DNA from: a virus
Taxonomy: Duplodnaviria > Heunggongvirae > Uroviricota > Caudoviricetes
IMG/VR virus record: IMGVR_UViG_3300029086_000082
Direction: 5' to 3' (one strand)
DNA: 12,190 nt
In this document: positions 1 through 11,256 of the stretch, piece by piece
How the letters are laid out: every line of letters starts with the position of its first letter
How positions within the stretch are numbered: the stretch's first letter is position 1
Made by a program: the position numbers and the translations under genes
The notes under the pieces: generated by a model
The model's input: the letters and a program-made list of their open reading frames with translations, nothing else
Told to the model about the DNA's origin: nothing
The model's database searches: none

Positions 1-603
1 ATGAATAAAGCCGTATTAAATAACGAACTCATTGCCATAAAAGCGGGAGACATTATCATTTATAATTATGATGGTGAAACGCGTGAATATATTTCTACAT
101 CAACTGAATATCTCGCTGTCGGCGTCGGTATCCCGGCATGTTCTTGTTTGGATGCACCAGGTACACATAAAGCTGGTTATGCAATCTGTCGCTCTGTAGA
201 TTTAAATTCATGGGAATATGTGCCAGATCATCGTGGTGAAATCGTCTATAGCACCGAAACAGGAGAATCGAAAAAAATCACAGCTCCGGGTGATTATCCT
301 GAAAATACAACCACTATCGCCCCGTTAACGCCATACGATAAATGGAATGGTGAGAAATGGGTGACAGATACCGAGGCACAGCACGGCGCAGCAGTAGATG
401 CAGCAGAAGCACTGCGCCAGTCGCTGATTCATACTGCAATGGCCTCCATCAGTCTGATTCAACTGAAATTACAGGCCGGACGGAATCTGACGCAGGCAGA
501 AACAACCCGCCTTAACGCTGTGCTGGATTACATTGACGCGGTGACGGCAACAGATACCAGCACCGCGCCGGATGTCATCTGGCCTGAACTGCCGGAGGCG
601 TAG
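1..603 (+). CDS. tfa: Tail fibre assembly protein (Tfa/gpG/U-like chaperone), plus-orientation copy
   Basis: 200-aa ORF starting at the window's first base; C-terminal ...APDVIWPELPEA motif typical of Tfa proteins. Its 3' end overlaps a second, convergent tfa by 29 bp. Confidence 0.75.
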   Translation: MNKAVLNNELIAIKAGDIIIYNYDGETREYISTSTEYLAVGVGIPACSCLDAPGTHKAGYAICRSVDLNSWEYVPDHRGEIVYSTETGESKKITAPGDYPENTTTIAPLTPYDKWNGEKWVTDTEAQHGAAVDAAEALRQSLIHTAMASISLIQLKLQAGRNLTQAETTRLNAVLDYIDAVTATDTSTAPDVIWPELPEA

Positions 604-1018
604 GCCATTCAATATCTGGCGCACCGGAAGTATCGATCAGCTCCAGTGCGTCCAGATAATCCAGCCACAAATTATATTGCGCCAGTTCATCATCTTTCAG
701 ACGACCAATAGCGGCTTTACCGGGCCATTGCTTACTGTTCATGTATTCGTTGGCCTGGTTAATTAGTAGCTGTCTTTCTGATTCAGTAATTTCAATAAGC
801 TCTTCATGCGTGGGTGGAGGAATATCTGCCCACGCAGGCATCCCATCATCTCCGGCAATACGGATTTTTCCTTGTGGCGGTTCAGCCATAAACTCACTGA
901 TAATATTTTGATTCACCTCCTTTGCATCTGATAAATCCCATCCCTCTGATTTATATTTATCAATCATATCCACAGGGAAAAAAGCATTATTCCTTGCGCT
1001 ATAAACATATTCGTTCAT
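575..1018 (-). CDS. tfa: Tail fibre assembly protein, alternative copy in inverted orientation
   Basis: Minus-strand ORF with Tfa-like N-terminus (MNEYVYSARNNAFFP...) and C-terminal APDIEWPTPP motif. ATG at 1018-1016 is preceded by AGGGTGA; the ORF track's longer start at 1027 is a GTG. It sits 11 nt downstream of the minus-strand fibre C-terminal ORF. Confidence 0.75.
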   Translation of the reverse strand: MNEYVYSARNNAFFPVDMIDKYKSEGWDLSDAKEVNQNIISEFMAEPPQGKIRIAGDDGMPAWADIPPPTHEELIEITESERQLLINQANEYMNSKQWPGKAAIGRLKDDELAQYNLWLDYLDALELIDTSGAPDIEWPTPPAVQAR

Positions 1019-1038
1019 ATAAATCACCCTGAATAAAA

Positions 1039-1424
1039 TTACTCACCAACAGCCCACCAACTGTAATTCATCGATACTGTGGAACTGGTTGATGCAGTTC
1101 TGTAAGCGGAATTAAAACCGGTTAATGTTGGGCCTTCTGCGGTCATCACGAATCCCCGCCCAGCACCTAAAGGCGCACCACCATCACCAGAATGAGTAAG
1201 CATGGCGCAGTCCACTTTTTTAGGAAAAGGGATGCTGAATGTAATTCTCATTGTTTGCGTCGATAATGTCGGCGTAACCGCACCACGACCATATTGCAGG
1301 ATTTTCCCGTTGGGTAATTTCATCCATCCATCACCACTGGCAAAAGAGGCCATGTCCGGTATCTGATTTTCCCCTGTCCCCACATCCCGTTTTGCCGCTT
1401 CTCCCAAACCAACGTTTATGAAAA
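1039..1424 (-). CDS. Alternative tail-fibre C-terminal (receptor-binding) variable domain, promoterless; expressed only after inversion fuses it to the constant fibre 5' part
   Basis: Minus-strand ORF, Gly/Ser/Thr-rich (..HSGDGGAPLGAGRGF..), directly upstream of a tfa on the same strand. The ORF reads through the crossover site (residues IFINVGLGE), so the N-terminal MMPVSHYLC of the track ORF is probably read-through, not a real start. Confidence 0.6.
1399..1424. repeat. Invertase crossover site (hix/gix/pix-like), right boundary of the invertible segment
   Basis: TTCTCCCAAACC-AA-CGTTTATGAAAA: two imperfect 12-bp inverted half-sites around a central AA dinucleotide with the AAACC..GGTTT-type core, 55 bp upstream of the invertase start. 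Confidence 0.6.
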
Positions 1425-1479
1425 TGCAGAGATAATGGCTAACTGGCATCATCCCCGGTTTTTATTCAGGGGGTTGATC

Positions 1480-2046
1480 ATGCTAATTGGCTATGTACGC
1501 GTGTCAACAAATGACCAGAACACCGATTTGCAACGTAATGCACTGAACTGCGCGGGATGTGAGCGGATTTTTGAGGACAAAATCAGTGGCACTAAGTCCG
1601 ACAGACCGGGGCTTAAAAAACTGCTCAGGACACTATCGGCAGGTGACACACTGGTTGTCTGGAAGCTGGACAGGTTGGGGCGCAGTATGCGGCATCTTGT
1701 TACGCTGATAGAAGAGTTGCGCCAGCGCGGCGTGAATTTCCGAAGCCTGACTGACAGTATTGATACCAGTACCCCAATGGGCCGTTTCTTTTTTCATGTC
1801 ATGGGTGCCCTGGCTGAAATGGAACGCGAACTGATAGTTGAACGTACCAGGGCAGGGCTGGCTGCAGCTCGTGCTAAAGGCAGAGTAGGTGGACGCCGTC
1901 CTAAGTTGACCACCGAACAGTGGGCACAGATTGGGCGTTTACTTGAGGCCGGAGAATCAAGACAGCGTATTGCACTGATTTTTGATGTAGGCGTTTCTAC
2001 TATTTATAGAAAATTTCCGGCAAATAAGAGCAATGAATCTCCCTGA
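1480..2046 (+). CDS. Site-specific DNA invertase, serine recombinase of the Gin/Pin/Hin/Cin family
   Basis: Starts MLIGYVRVSTNDQ (catalytic Ser motif) and has the conserved core VVWKLDRLGRSMRHL...SLTDSIDTSTPMGRFFFHVMGALAEMERELIVERT plus a C-terminal HTH (IALIFDVGVSTIYRKF). AGGGGG lies upstream of the ATG at 1480; the track start at 1435 adds 15 non-conserved residues. Confidence 0.9.
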   Translation: MLIGYVRVSTNDQNTDLQRNALNCAGCERIFEDKISGTKSDRPGLKKLLRTLSAGDTLVVWKLDRLGRSMRHLVTLIEELRQRGVNFRSLTDSIDTSTPMGRFFFHVMGALAEMERELIVERTRAGLAAARAKGRVGGRRPKLTTEQWAQIGRLLEAGESRQRIALIFDVGVSTIYRKFPANKSNESP

Positions 2047-7929: not shown

Positions 7930-9026
7930 ATTTCAGCTCTGAACTGCTTAACAAAGGCAACAAAACTCCCGCATTCAGCATCAGTATTGAGGACAGGGAT
8001 ATCACTACTGTGCTGGATAACCGCCTGATGAGTCTGACGCTGACGGACAATCGGGGCTTTGAAGCGGACCAGCTTGATCTGGAGCTGGACGACGCCGACG
8101 GAAAAATTGTGCTGCCGCGCCGTGGTGCGGTCATCACGCTGGCGCTGGGCTGGAAGGGGCAGCCGCTTTTCCCGAAAGGGGCATTCACGGTGGACGAGAT
8201 TGAACACACCGGCGCACCGGATCGCCTGACTATCCGGGCGCGAAGTGCTGATTTTAGGGAAACGCTGAATACCCGCCGTGAAAAATCGTGGCACAAGACC
8301 ACTGTCGGGGAAGTGGTGAAGGAAATAGCCGCGCGTCATAAGCTGAAGATGGCACTGGGTAAAGACCTGTCGGATAAGCCCGTGGAGCATATAGACCAGA
8401 CTAATGAGAGTGACGGCAGTTTTCTGATGCGGCTGGCGCGCCAGTACGGTGCCATCGCGTCGGTGAAAAATGGCAATCTGTTATTCATCCGGCAGGGACA
8501 GGGCAAAAGCGCCAGCGGTAAACCACTGCCGGTGATCTCAATCACACGTAAGGACGGCGACAGTCACCGCTTTACCCTGGCAGATCGCGGAGCCTACACG
8601 GGCGTAATTGCCAGTTGGTTGCATACCCGCGAACCCGCGAAGAAAGAAAGCACCACGGTGAAGCGTAAGCGCAGGACTAAGAAGCAGAAGAAAGAGCCGG
8701 AAGCGAAGCAGGGCGATTACCTGGTGGGTACGGATGAAAACGTGCTGGTACTTAATCGCACTTATGCCAACCGGAGCAACGCCGAACGGGCAGCGAAAAT
8801 GCAGTGGGAACGCCTGCAACGCGGCGTTGCATCATTCTCGCTACAACTGGCGGAAGGGCGGGCAGATCTCTACACAGAAATGCCTGTGAAGGTCAGTGGC
8901 TTTAAACAGCCGATAGATGATGCGGAATGGACCATTACGACTCTGACGCATACCGTCAGCCCCGATAACGGTTTTACAACCAGTCTGGAGCTTGAAGTGA
9001 GGATTGATGATTTCGAAATGGAATGA
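7926..9026 (+). CDS. D: Tail protein / late control protein D (P2 gpD homologue)
   Basis: 366 aa with a GTG start overlapping the U stop; GPD-family-like sequence (..LTLTDNRGFEADQLDLELDD..); last gene of the tail operon before ogr. Confidence 0.9.
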   Translation: MNFSSELLNKGNKTPAFSISIEDRDITTVLDNRLMSLTLTDNRGFEADQLDLELDDADGKIVLPRRGAVITLALGWKGQPLFPKGAFTVDEIEHTGAPDRLTIRARSADFRETLNTRREKSWHKTTVGEVVKEIAARHKLKMALGKDLSDKPVEHIDQTNESDGSFLMRLARQYGAIASVKNGNLLFIRQGQGKSASGKPLPVISITRKDGDSHRFTLADRGAYTGVIASWLHTREPAKKESTTVKRKRRTKKQKKEPEAKQGDYLVGTDENVLVLNRTYANRSNAERAAKMQWERLQRGVASFSLQLAEGRADLYTEMPVKVSGFKQPIDDAEWTITTLTHTVSPDNGFTTSLELEVRIDDFEME

Positions 9027-9116
9027 TTCTTCGCAATGGAGAACTTTTAAGTTTGCAAAATGGAATAATGCGGTATCATTATTGTGAATTTAGCAAAAAT
9101 GGGGAGAGCTCGAAAA

Positions 9117-9335
9117 ATGATGATTTGCCCACTGTGTGGAAGTGCCGCCCATACTCGCAGCAGTTTTCAGGTATCTTCATTGACCAAAGAGCGTTACAAC
9201 CAGTGCCAGAACATTAACTGCAGCCATACTTTTGTTACCCATGAAACTTTTGTTCGTTCGATTGCAACGCCAAAAGAGTCAAATCCGGTTCAGCCGCATC
9301 CAATGAAATCAGGACAGGTGGCGCTCTCTCTTTGA
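9117..9335 (+). CDS. ogr: Ogr-type zinc-finger late-gene transcriptional activator
   Basis: 72 aa from ATG 9117 (GGGGAGAG 9 nt upstream). C-X2-C...C-X4-C zinc-finger spacing (CPLCGSAAH...CQNINCSHTF) as in P2 Ogr. The track's upstream start at 9084 lacks a Shine-Dalgarno sequence and adds non-conserved residues. Confidence 0.9.
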   Translation: MMICPLCGSAAHTRSSFQVSSLTKERYNQCQNINCSHTFVTHETFVRSIATPKESNPVQPHPMKSGQVALSL

Positions 9336-9412
9336 CGCTGCCGCCAATTTGTCGCCATCATTAAAAAATAGTGCTTCTAACATCATGATTTTAAAAGGCA
9401 TAAATTTCAGGC

Positions 9413-9458
9413 AACAAAAAACCCATCAACCTTGAACCGAAATGGCGGGGTTGATGGG
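9413..9458 (-). terminator. Candidate rho-independent terminator downstream of ybjL
   Basis: 10-bp stem CCCATCAACC / GGTTGATGGG (9422-9431 / 9449-9458) followed on the minus strand by TTTTTTGTT. It lies about 115 nt past the ybjL stop and the loop is large (17 nt), so confidence is moderate. Confidence 0.45.
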
Positions 9459-9570
9459 CTCCACAAAATGGGGACATCAAAGAAAAGCAGTGGCACTAAT
9501 TAAGACTGATGCCCTGCGGAAAAGTTCTGCGGTTGTGCAAAAAAATTTCATTTTCAGGGCAACTTCAGTT

Positions 9571-11256
9571 TTATCCTAATCCTGGCCATACCATGACGAT
9601 GATTGTCCCTGCCAGCGTCAGCAGGACGTTGGCGATTGCGTAGGTGCCCGCGTAGCCCAGCGCAGGGATGTTACTGCGAGCTGTATCACTGATGATCTCC
9701 ATTGCCGGCGCGCAGGTGCGTGCGCCCATCATTGCGCCGAACAACAGTGCGCGGTTCATTCGCAATACATAAGCACCGAACAAGAAACAGATAACCACGG
9801 GCACAAGACTGACAATTAATCCGGCAATCAACATCTGACCGCCAATCGCGCCCAGGCCGTTATTAATACCGCTACCGGCGCTCAGACCAACGCCTGCCAT
9901 AAACACCATCAAGCCGAACTCTTTCACCATGCTTAATGCACCTTGCGGAATGTAACCGAAGGTCGGGTGGTTAGCACGCATAAAGCCCAGCATAATTCCG
10001 GCGAATAACAACCCGGCAGCGTTCCCCATGCCGAAACTGAATGTGCTGAACTGGAAGGTGATCATCCCGATCATCAGCCCAATAACAAAGAAGGCGCAAA
10101 ATGCCAGCAGGTCAGTGACCTGGCTGTGAATCGAGATAAAGCCGATGCGATCGGCGATGGTTTTTACGCGACGGGCATCACCGCTGACTTGTAAAACGTC
10201 ACCTTTGTTAAGCACGACGTTGTCATCTATCGGCATCTCAATCTGGCTACGAATGACGCGGTTAAGGAAGCAACCGTGATCGGTCAACTTCAGTTGTGCG
10301 AGACGTTTACCTACAGCGTTATGGTTTTTAACGACCACTTCTTCAGTGACGATACGCATGTCGAGAAGGTCACGATCGAAAACTTCTTTACCGTTACGGA
10401 AGCTGGGATCGAGTCGGGCATGGGCGTCGGGATAGCCTACCAACGCTATTTCATCGCCCATTTGTAGCACGGCATCACCGTCTGGATTTGCCAGAATCCC
10501 GTTACGTCGAATACGTTCAATGTAGCAGCCGGTTTGTCGATAAATACCCAGTTCACGCAGATTTTTGCCGTCGGTCCAGGCCACCAGCTCCGGGCCGACG
10601 CGATAGGCGCGGATCACCGGTAAATAAACCTTACGGTTGGCATCAGTGTCCAGGCCACGTTCGCGGGCGATTTGCTGGGCGCTGGTCTGTAAGTCCTGAT
10701 GCTGCAATTTCGGCAAGTAACGCGCACCAACAATCAAACTCACCAGACCGATTAAATAGGTTAAGGCATACCCGAGGCTCAGATTATCCAGTGCCAGTGA
10801 GAGCTGCCTGCTTTCCATGCCGGAATGACGCAGTGTATCGCCAGCACCGACCAGAACCGGTGTCGACGTCATAGAGCCTGCTAACATACCGGCCGTCAGG
10901 CCAATATCCCAGCCAAACAGCTTACCTAACCCTAAGGCGATCACCAGCGCACTGCCAACCATCACCAGTGCTAACATTAGGTAATTTTTCCCATCGCGAA
11001 AAAAAATGGAAAAAAAGTTCGGTCCGGCTTCGACCCCGACGCAGAAAATAAACAGCATAAAGCCAAGATTAAGCGCATCGGTGTTAATGCTGAAATGTTG
11101 TTGGCCTAATAACAGCGATACGACTAAAACGCCAATGGAATTACCCAGTTGGATCGAACCAAGTCGTAACTTTCCGAGACATAGCCCAAGCGCGAGGACC
11201 ACAAATAATAACAGAATGTAATTCCCATTTAACAATTCGGCGACGTTTATATTCAC
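9571..11256 (-). CDS. ybjL: Putative transport protein YbjL (AAE-family transporter with central paired TrkA-C/RCK_C domains)
   Basis: 561 aa, multi-pass membrane protein with a soluble central region; matches E. coli YbjL in length and sequence from memory. GTG start at 11256-11254. Confidence 0.95.

What the first reader, a model, noticed from the sequence alone, without database searches (positions are those of the whole stretch)
9336..9570. Prophage-host junction (attR) in the 235-bp gap between ogr and the 3' end of ybjL
ogr is the terminal gene of a P2-type prophage, and core genes ybjL-ybjM-grxA follow in the order I recall from E. coli K-12, where I do not recall a prophage at this position. 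The AT-rich stretch at 9336-9412 sits between ogr and the candidate ybjL terminator and is the most likely location of the att core. The integrase and attL would be at the far end of the prophage, outside the window.
Basis: inference. Interest (0 to 1): 0.5.

Follow-up and report, generated by a model that had tools for sequence, protein, structure and literature searches.

The report
Prophage attR inside rybB sRNA gene
This is the right-hand junction of a P2-like prophage inserted into the last 14 bases of the small-RNA gene rybB (between rcdA and ybjL), a documented insertion hotspot occupied in about one fifth of complete E. coli genomes, so it is real but ordinary.

Summary
Prophage-free E. 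coli match the window only from 9400 rightwards. K-12 is identical from 9413 and differs at 4 of 13 bases in 9400-9412.

The hairpin it called a ybjL terminator is the rybB terminator.

A near-identical lysogen, a Klebsiella prophage record and two phage attP sequences show a 27-bp homology block (9400-9426). Allele patterns place strand exchange in the invariant 14-mer AACAAAAAACCCAT (9413-9426), which is the last 14 nt of rybB. rybB therefore stays intact.

The AT-rich stretch 9336-9399 is the phage P arm. It carries two GYCGCCA repeats 11 bp apart, repeated in the P' arm, and an IHF-like site. These are motif-level predictions.

About 21% of 5,426 complete E. coli genomes carry this junction and 78% have the empty site. 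rybB is already published as a P2-like prophage target (Archer 2011, Hudson 2014, Hochhauser 2023).

Verdict: correct, already known, low interest.

The parts
9117..9335 (+). ogr, the last gene of the P2-like prophage (late-gene activator with a zinc finger)
   Evidence: Pfam PF04606, 78 bits. RefSeq annotates the same ORF in near-identical lysogens.
9336..9399 (.). P arm of the att site. This DNA is phage-only and absent from empty sites.
   Evidence: No identity to the empty-site strains EcN or K-12. It is present next to the core in phage attP sequences KP12 and L106.
9340..9357 (+). Two direct GYCGCCA repeats (9340-9346 and 9351-9357), 11 bp start to start. Candidate arm-type integrase binding sites.
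   Evidence: The same pair, with the same spacing and orientation, recurs in the P' arm at +110/+121. These are the only four occurrences in 900 bp of attP. The motif is conserved in P arms from six genera while the flanks diverge. Function is inferred.
9378..9390 (.). IHF-like site TAACATCATGATT (reverse complement of WATCAANNNNTTR, one mismatch)
   Evidence: The TAA and TGATT positions are invariant or nearly so across 15 divergent P arms, and several are perfect matches. Function is inferred by analogy with P2/186 attP.
9400..9412 (.). 13 bp ATAAATTTCAGGC, the left part of the 27-bp homology block. Here it is phage-derived. It is identical to the EcN-type attB allele and matches the K-12-type allele at 9 of 13 bases.
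   Evidence: The attR and attP copies share this sequence or differ from it at one base. The attL copy follows the host rcdA allele.
9413..9426 (.). 14-bp common core AACAAAAAACCCAT, the segment within which strand exchange must occur. It is the last 14 nt of rybB (AUGGGUUUUUUGUU in the RNA).
   Evidence: Exact in attB, attP and attR, and in the attL copy of every lysogen examined except one. That exception, 2014C-3075, has C for the last T in both its attL and attR. It occurs once in the window, with 0 expected by chance.
9413..9494 (-). rybB small RNA gene, intact. The terminator hairpin is 9420-9460 and the U-tract is 9416-9421.
   Evidence: Rfam RF00110, 105.3 bits against a gathering score of 40, model positions 1-79 of 79, at 9413-9491. 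The 5' end at 9494 is placed from the published RybB 5' sequence GCCACUGC (my knowledge), located. Fold. Identical to K-12 over 9413-9639.
9500..9527 (-). Sigma-E-type promoter of rybB: GAACTT (9527-9522), 16-nt spacer, TCTTAA (9505-9500)
   Evidence: Located by pattern. Its identity as a sigma-E promoter rests on established knowledge of rybB, not on a test here.
9571..11256 (-). ybjL (aspartate:alanine antiporter family), a host core gene
   Evidence: Pfam. RefSeq annotation.

Best explanation
Window 9336-9426 is the attR junction of a P2-like (Peduoviridae) prophage that integrated by tyrosine-integrase site-specific recombination into the 3' end of the small-RNA gene rybB, between rcdA and ybjL.

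The phage attP lies between ogr and int. It carries a 27-bp block resembling the host sequence. The right-hand 14 bp of that block (AACAAAAAACCCAT) equal the last 14 nt of rybB: the end of the terminator stem, the U-tract and two more bases. In the phage these same 14 bp form the descending half and T-tract of a hairpin just downstream of int.

Exchange within the 14-mer swaps what lies downstream of two terminators that share a 3' end.

- rybB keeps its sigma-E promoter, body and terminator at attR.
- int keeps its own hairpin at attL, next to rcdA.

By analogy with P2 and 186, the intasome is predicted to use paired GYCGCCA arm-type sites on both arms, an IHF site in the P arm, and tandem AAAACAATAAGTT repeats (RDF or IHF sites) in the P' arm.

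Shown here: the junction position, the direct repeat, the attP structure, an intact rybB, and population occupancy. Inferred: the exchange interval (from allele patterns) and all protein-binding sites (from motif conservation).
For: Junction position:
- Empty-site genomes match from 9400.
- K-12 is identical from 9413 and has 4 mismatches in 9400-9412.

Target gene:
- A full-length rybB is found by Rfam at 9413-9491.
- It has a 12-bp terminator stem and a U-tract.

Other prophage end:
- In KCJ3K291, the interval between the tyrosine integrase gene and rcdA contains ATAAGTTTTAGAT+AACAAAAAACCCAT followed by phage DNA.
- 1,123 genomes share this int-side junction.

Phage attP:
- KP12 and metagenomic contig L106 join the window's P arm, the 27-bp block and the int-side arm.
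- The Klebsiella phage 4LV2017 record annotates attL and attR of 19-20 bp at the same place.

Exchange interval:
- Klebsiella attL keeps host sequence up to CAGGC, while attR keeps the phage ATAAATTT.
- In E. coli the attL 13-mer follows the host rcdA allele: K-12-like in L004, L008, L009, L083, L088 and L089, and EcN-like in L101 and L103, all with the same P' arm.
- attR and attP carry ATAAATTTCAGGC or a version one base different.

Integrase:
- Pfam PF00589 plus PF24624.
- It forms a distinct clade: at least 99% identical in 15 phage records and 39% identical to P2 Int.

Arm and IHF motifs.

Literature:
- rybB is listed as the insertion site of P2-like prophages in E. coli W, B and Crooks (PMC3032704).
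- Island Kpn38RybB (PMC4048246).
- Hotspot #29 (PMC10121019).
Against: - attL and int of this particular prophage lie outside the window. The direct-repeat test was done on other genomes, the best of which is 99.9% identical over 865 bp.
- The exchange interval comes from polymorphism patterns in about a dozen lysogens, not from cleavage mapping.
- One lysogen (2014C-3075) does not fit simply. Its attL has the phage-like 13-mer despite a K-12-like rcdA allele, and both of its att sites end CCCAC.
- The arm-type, IHF and RDF sites are motif-level predictions. The P' copy of GYCGCCA lies inside int codons, so its conservation there could be due to coding constraint.
- The simple terminator scan did not flag the rybB hairpin because its loop is long.
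Confidence: 0.93

Rival explanations
1. The core is the whole 27-bp block, exchange occurs at its left edge (around 9400-9403), and 9404-9426 is therefore host DNA.
For: Against EcN-type empty sites, identity begins exactly at 9400 and the 27 bp are identical. In lysogen 2014C-3075 the attL carries ATAAATTTCAGGC.
Against: - In Klebsiella the attR keeps ATAAATTT, which the Klebsiella attB lacks, so exchange is to the right of it.
- Three different attL 13-mers sit next to near-identical P' arms and track the host rcdA allele.
- True attP sequences carry the attR-type 13-mer.
- Only 4 bp (ATAA) of identity would be available in K-12-type hosts.
Confidence: 0.04
2. The hairpin is simply the ybjL terminator, and the phage targets a gene-free intergenic terminator.
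For: ybjL is on the same strand, and no other terminator-like site was found between 9571 and the hairpin. RefSeq annotation of these genomes lists no RNA gene there.
Against: The Rfam RybB model matches full-length at 105 bits, with E=1.4e-22. A sigma-E-type promoter motif sits immediately upstream. The published literature names rybB as the target.
Confidence: 0.02
3. The junction is a fossil. The prophage in the source strain is defective, with deletions elsewhere, and the attR no longer takes part in excision.
For: Internally deleted versions occur at the same site in strains D2, PK5086 and GDSC2227PM. Remnants with the P-arm motif persist next to rybB in other genera.
Against: All late genes in the window are full-length ORFs with the expected Pfam domains. 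Complete ~33-35 kb prophages with the same ends exist. The P arm motifs are intact in the window. The rest of this prophage is outside the window, so its status cannot be decided.
Confidence: 0.2

Closest known systems
P2-like prophages at the rybB ncRNA site: Rybb*W, Rybb*B (carries retron Ec86) and Rybb*Cr in E. coli W, B and Crooks (Archer et al. 2011, PMC3032704); hotspot #29 of Hochhauser et al. 2023 (PMC10121019); island Kpn38RybB of K. pneumoniae (Hudson et al. 2014, PMC4048246); Klebsiella phage 4LV2017 (KY271398)
   Same: Same target gene, same prophage type and same orientation, with int next to rcdA and ogr next to rybB. The integrase is at least 99% identical at protein level in 15 phage records, among them Klebsiella phage records. 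ogr and the P arm are about 96% identical in DNA to 4LV2017. The 4LV2017 record annotates attR at the position equivalent to window 9408-9426.
   Different: Nothing essential. In E. coli the homology block is longer than the 19-20 bp annotated for Klebsiella: 27 bp, perfect or 23/27 depending on the host allele. Cargo genes differ between lysogens.
Bacteriophage P2 and 186 site-specific recombination systems (Int, IHF, Cox/Apl; attP between int and ogr)
   Same: A tyrosine integrase, with attP between ogr and int. The predicted layout is arm-type direct repeats on both arms, an IHF site in the P arm, and tandem repeats in the P' arm where P2 Cox acts. The general architecture is taken from PMC3936717 and PMC7498355.
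   Different: The integrase is only 39% identical to P2 Int. The core sequence and chromosomal target differ. None of the binding sites proposed here has been tested.
Prophage integration into the 3' ends of tRNA, tmRNA and other sRNA genes (for example ryeB in Salmonella and ryeE/cyaR in E. coli, as cited in Bobay et al. 2013, PMC3603311)
   Same: The phage carries a copy of the 3' end of a structured RNA gene, so integration regenerates an intact gene. The target is conserved, single-copy and ends in a hairpin.
   Different: Only the last 14 nt (end of the terminator stem plus the U-tract) are shared. The duplicated segment doubles as part of the hairpin downstream of the phage int gene.

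Membership tests
Prophage attR of a tyrosine-integrase (P2-like) phage | Sequence identity to prophage-free genomes of the same species stops at a defined point next to the terminal phage gene | tested here: met
   Genomes without ogr match from window 9400. 4,227 genomes have an uninterrupted empty site.
Prophage attR of a tyrosine-integrase (P2-like) phage | A direct repeat of the core at the other prophage end, next to an integrase gene | tested here: met
   Tested in near-identical lysogens, not in the window itself. KCJ3K291, D2 and PK5086 have the exact 14-mer, and 2014C-3075 has it with one substitution. 1,123 genomes carry the int-rcdA junction.
Prophage attR of a tyrosine-integrase (P2-like) phage | An attP in the phage genome joins the two prophage-end arms through the same core | tested here: met
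   KP12, and IMG/VR contigs L106 and L120.
Prophage attR of a tyrosine-integrase (P2-like) phage | A tyrosine recombinase is encoded next to att | tested here: met
   PF00589 plus PF24624 in the integrase of KCJ3K291. The gene lies outside the window.
Prophage attR of a tyrosine-integrase (P2-like) phage | Arm-type Int sites and accessory-factor (IHF, RDF) sites flank the core | tested here: inconclusive
   Conserved GYCGCCA pairs on both arms, an IHF-consensus match and P' tandem repeats. This is sequence evidence only.
Prophage attR of a tyrosine-integrase (P2-like) phage | Int-dependent integration and excision at this site | not testable with these tools
   Requires recombination assays or induction of the lysogen.
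RybB sRNA (Rfam RF00110) | Covariance-model score above the curated gathering threshold over the full model | tested here: met
   105.3 bits against a threshold of 40, model positions 1-79 of 79, E=1.4e-22.
RybB sRNA (Rfam RF00110) | Conserved synteny between rcdA (ybjK) and ybjL | tested here: met
   The same arrangement is found across many Enterobacteriaceae genera.
RybB sRNA (Rfam RF00110) | A sigma-E-dependent promoter and a Rho-independent terminator | tested here: inconclusive
   GAACTT-16 nt-TCTTAA lies upstream of the RNA 5' end. A 12-bp hairpin plus U-tract is predicted. Sigma-E dependence is from prior knowledge and was not tested.
   The hairpin is 111-151 nt downstream of the ybjL stop. 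It is the 3' end of rybB, which has its own promoter in between.

The most novel reading that the evidence does not exclude
The 13 bp just downstream of rybB exist as two sharply different alleles in prophage-free E. coli: ATAAATTTCAGGC, identical to the phage attP, and ATAAGTTTTAGAT. A similar pair appears in two Enterobacter hormaechei genomes. This could mean that cycles of phage integration and imprecise loss have overwritten the host flank of rybB with phage sequence (att-site 'imprinting'), or that one allele was selected because it changes integration efficiency. My evidence favours ordinary old haplotypes instead. The 13-mer is linked to rcdA alleles, and outgroup Escherichia carry the phage-like form.
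Probability: 0.1. Interest if true: 0.35.

Novelty: already known. Interest (0 to 1): 0.14.

Why it matters
For annotation, the prophage boundary should be set at rybB. The 14-mer 9413-9426 is shared, everything left of 9413 is phage-derived and everything to its right is host. The rybB gene, which automatic RefSeq annotation omits in these genomes, should be marked as intact.

The site is a major hotspot. About 21% of complete E. coli genomes are occupied, and published work shows these prophages carry variable defence-system cargo.

The predicted attP anatomy gives concrete targets for anyone wishing to use this integrase as a tool: paired GYCGCCA arm sites, an IHF site, and a terminator-mimicking core. 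It does not change what is known about how such phages integrate.

Tried and rejected
1. The consensus terminator scan of 9000-9700 found nothing. The rybB hairpin has a 17-nt loop region that the scan does not allow. Rfam and folding were used instead.

2. My first reading was a 27-bp core with the junction at 9400. I then noticed that the attL of KCJ3K291 differs at 4 of the first 13 positions, and considered exchange at the far left. I rejected this after finding that the 'variant' is simply the K-12-type attB allele, that Klebsiella data exclude the left edge, and that attL 13-mers track host rcdA alleles.

3. I considered phage 'imprinting' of the EcN-type allele. It is disfavoured because the 13-mer is linked to rcdA haplotypes and outgroup Escherichia have the phage-like form.

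4. Most of the 80 IMG/VR loci found with the integrase were cut 3 bp after int. Only 9 extended further, and 7 of these included the att core.

5. Literature searches for 4LV2017 and for a dissection of this att site found no detailed biochemical study in the held library.

6. A phage search with the attL region returned one 'phage' record, vB_EcoM-813R9, that includes host rcdA. It was therefore not usable as an attP.

Full report
**1. What is in the sequence**

ogr occupies 9117-9335 on the + strand (Pfam Ogr_Delta, E=5e-22). It is preceded by gpD, gpU, the tape-measure gene, tube and sheath. ybjL occupies 9571-11256 on the - strand, and ybjM and grxA follow in K-12 order. The gap is 9336-9570, 235 bp. 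Its left part is AT-rich: 38% G+C over 9336-9412 and 27% over 9358-9412, against 52% for the window.

**2. Where host identity stops**

I searched 9036-9900 with megablast against 5,426 complete E. coli genomes. 1,115 genomes cover at least 80% of the query, that is ogr plus the junction. The listed genomes without ogr match only from query position 365, which is window 9400.

The reciprocal query was a 300-bp empty site from strain EcN. It is uninterrupted in 4,227 genomes. In the sampled occupied genomes the match mostly breaks at query position 177, which is the right edge of a 27-bp block equivalent to window 9400-9426.

K-12 MG1655 has rcdA and ybjL 174 bp apart with no prophage. Against K-12 the window is identical from 9413 to 9639, differs at 4 of 13 positions in 9400-9412, and is unrelated further left. 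Against EcN it is identical from 9400.

**3.

An Rfam scan of 9000-9700 finds the small RNA RybB on the minus strand at 9413-9491. The score is 105.3 bits against a gathering score of 40, covering model positions 1-79 of 79, with E=1.4e-22.

The RNA folds into the expected 12-bp terminator hairpin (9420-9460) followed by a U-tract. A GAACTT-16 nt-TCTTAA motif of sigma-E type sits just upstream of the known 5' end GCCACUGC at 9494. Sigma-E dependence is from prior knowledge.

It could also stop ybjL read-through, because both genes are on the minus strand and no other terminator-like site was found. RefSeq annotation of these genomes does not list rybB, which may be why it is easy to overlook.

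**4. The other end of the prophage, and attP**

Strain KCJ3K291 is 99.9% identical to the window over 865 bp. Its prophage runs to a tyrosine integrase gene (PF00589 plus PF24624) that converges on rcdA.

The 104-bp interval between int and rcdA reads, in window orientation, rcdA-TAGTAG-ATAAGTTTTAGAT-AACAAAAAACCCAT-TTATGTAAATGGGTT.... 1,123 genomes share this int-side junction.

Phage sequences in which ogr and int are adjacent give attP. In KP12 and in metagenomic contig L106, the window's P arm is followed by ATAAATTTCAG(A/G)C-AACAAAAAACCCAT and then the same int-side arm. The Klebsiella phage 4LV2017 record annotates attL and attR of 19-20 bp at the equivalent positions, with attR equal to window 9408-9426.

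The 14-mer occurs once in the window, with none expected by chance. A chance second copy within a 33-kb prophage has an expectation of about 2.5e-4.

**5. Where strand exchange occurs**

Prophage-free E. coli have two alleles of the 13 bp left of the 14-mer. The K-12 type is ATAAGTTTTAGAT and the EcN type is ATAAATTTCAGGC. The EcN type equals the phage sequence. Three lines of evidence place exchange inside the 14-mer.

(a) In Klebsiella the host attB reads GCTAAACGCAGGC. The 4LV2017 attL keeps that host sequence, while attR has the phage ATAAATTTCAGGC. Exchange there lies within CAGGC plus the 14-mer.

(b) In E. coli lysogens the attL 13-mer follows the host rcdA allele. It is K-12-like in KCJ3K291, D2, PK5086, L083, L088 and L089, and EcN-like in L101 and L103, all with the same P' arm.

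(c) The attR and attP copies read ATAAATTTCAGGC or differ from it at one base, in both E. coli and Klebsiella hosts.

In the window, therefore, 9400-9412 is most likely phage-derived, and exchange took place within 9413-9426, the last 14 nt of rybB. One lysogen, 2014C-3075, does not fit neatly. Both its att sites end CCCAC, and its attL carries the phage-like 13-mer. I leave this unexplained.

**6. Mechanism**

In the phage, the 14-mer is the descending stem and T-tract of a hairpin (AACCCATTTA-loop-TAAATGGGTT followed by a T-run) about 60 nt downstream of the int stop codon. In the host, the same 14 bp are the end of the rybB terminator stem and its U-tract.

Exchange within them swaps only what lies downstream of two terminators that share a 3' end. 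rybB stays intact at attR: it is identical to K-12 from 9413 and matches the full Rfam model. int keeps its hairpin at attL.

The rest of attP resembles the published P2/186 layout. Taking the first base of the 14-mer as 0, the elements are as follows.

| Position | Element |
|---|---|
| -80 | ogr stop |
| -73 and -62 | GCCGCCA and GTCGCCA |
| -35 | IHF-like TAACATCATGATT |
| +33 and +52 | tandem AAAACAATAAGTT |
| +88 | int stop |
| +110 and +121 | GCCGCCA and GTCGCCA, inside int codons |

These four GYCGCCA copies are the only ones in 900 bp. They all have one orientation and form two pairs with identical 11-bp spacing. The P-arm pair and the invariant positions of the IHF-like site are conserved in occupied sites of Klebsiella, Phytobacter, Scandinavium, Enterobacter, Pluralibacter and Escherichia, while the surrounding arm has diverged.

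I propose the GYCGCCA pairs as arm-type Int sites. This is inference. In the window they lie at 9340-9346 and 9351-9357, and the IHF-like site at 9378-9390.

**7. Comparison with what is known**

- Archer et al. 2011 list 'rybB ncRNA' as the insertion site of P2-like prophages in E. coli W, B and Crooks. The B copy carries retron Ec86 (PMC3032704).
- Hudson et al. [quoted passage not shown]
- Hochhauser et al. 2023 define hotspot #29, occupied only by Felsduovirus-type prophages integrated in rybB, in 109 genomes (PMC10121019).
- sRNA genes as prophage targets are discussed by Bobay et al. 2013 (PMC3603311).

The integrase is a distinct specificity clade. It is at least 99% identical in 15 phage records, 80-90% in 4, and below 60% in all others, with 39% identity to P2 Int. 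I found no biochemical dissection of this att site in the held library.

**8. Verdict**

There are three refinements: the target is rybB, the hairpin is its terminator, and the exchange segment is 9413-9426 rather than the AT-rich P arm.

The feature is already known and very common, so interest is low. The window alone cannot show whether this particular prophage is complete or excisable. Both complete and internally deleted versions occur at this site.

Noticed in passing
window 1-2046: This looks like an invertible tail-fibre host-range segment. It has a tail-fibre assembly gene on the + strand (1-603), an alternative assembly gene (575-1027) and a tail-fibre C-terminal cassette (1039-1452) on the - strand, then a serine DNA invertase (1435-2046; Resolvase plus HTH_7). 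The layout resembles Mu Gin or P1 Cin. The upstream recombination site would lie outside the window.
   Followed up: partly
window 9400-9412; L001 2501-2513; L007 786-798; L015, L022: Prophage-free E. coli carry two very different 13-bp alleles between the rcdA stop and rybB: ATAAATTTCAGGC, which equals the phage attP, and ATAAGTTTTAGAT. That is 4 differences in 13 bp, with intermediates such as ATAAATTTTAGAT. Two Enterobacter hormaechei genomes show the same ...GTTTTAGAT versus ...ATTTCAGGC contrast. The origin is unexplained.
   Followed up: partly
L010 (E. coli 2014C-3075), attL ~364-390 and attR ~35561-35587: Both att sites end AACAAAAAACCCAC rather than ...CCCAT. In rybB this turns a U-A pair of the terminator stem into U-G. 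If the C came from the phage, the last core position lies in the overlap region. If it came from the host, it is a rare rybB variant.
   Followed up: no
L012-L045 (GTDB species representatives): In many Enterobacteriaceae, rcdA and rybB are separated by 0.5-4 kb inserts. Some keep the P-arm GYCGCCA motif together with gpD and ogr fragments (L040) or without them (L019), and look like decayed prophages. Others share unrelated left flanks (L017/L032/L041 and L018/L027) ending in AATTTCAGGC. These may be different elements using the same site.
   Followed up: partly
L008 (strain D2), L009 (PK5086), L006 (GDSC2227PM): Internally deleted prophages at the same site fuse late tail genes directly to another phage gene: tape measure to terminase in D2, gpD to terminase in PK5086, and sheath to tape measure in GDSC2227PM. 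The att-proximal genes ogr and (in D2 and PK5086) int are retained. The cargo between the portal and replication genes differs in every lysogen: an HNH endonuclease; an AAA ATPase plus ComF; a P-loop NTPase plus an HsdR-N-domain protein; a DUF4435/AAA pair. This is consistent with the published defence-cargo hotspot.
   Followed up: no
L030 (Actinoallomurus acaciae contig, 724 bp) and L041 (Chryseobacterium sp. 18061 contig): Contigs filed under non-enterobacterial species carry an enterobacterial rybB-ybjL region (with rcdA in L030). L030 is 100% identical to E. coli RcdA and YbjL. This is probably assembly contamination.
   Followed up: no
attP, +110 to +127 relative to the 14-mer (L106); L005 4022-4041: The P'-arm copy of the 20-nt motif CTGCCGCCAnTTTGTCGCCA lies inside the last codons of int, where it encodes GDKVAAA. 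The integrase tail and a putative integrase binding site would therefore be encoded by the same DNA.
   Followed up: partly
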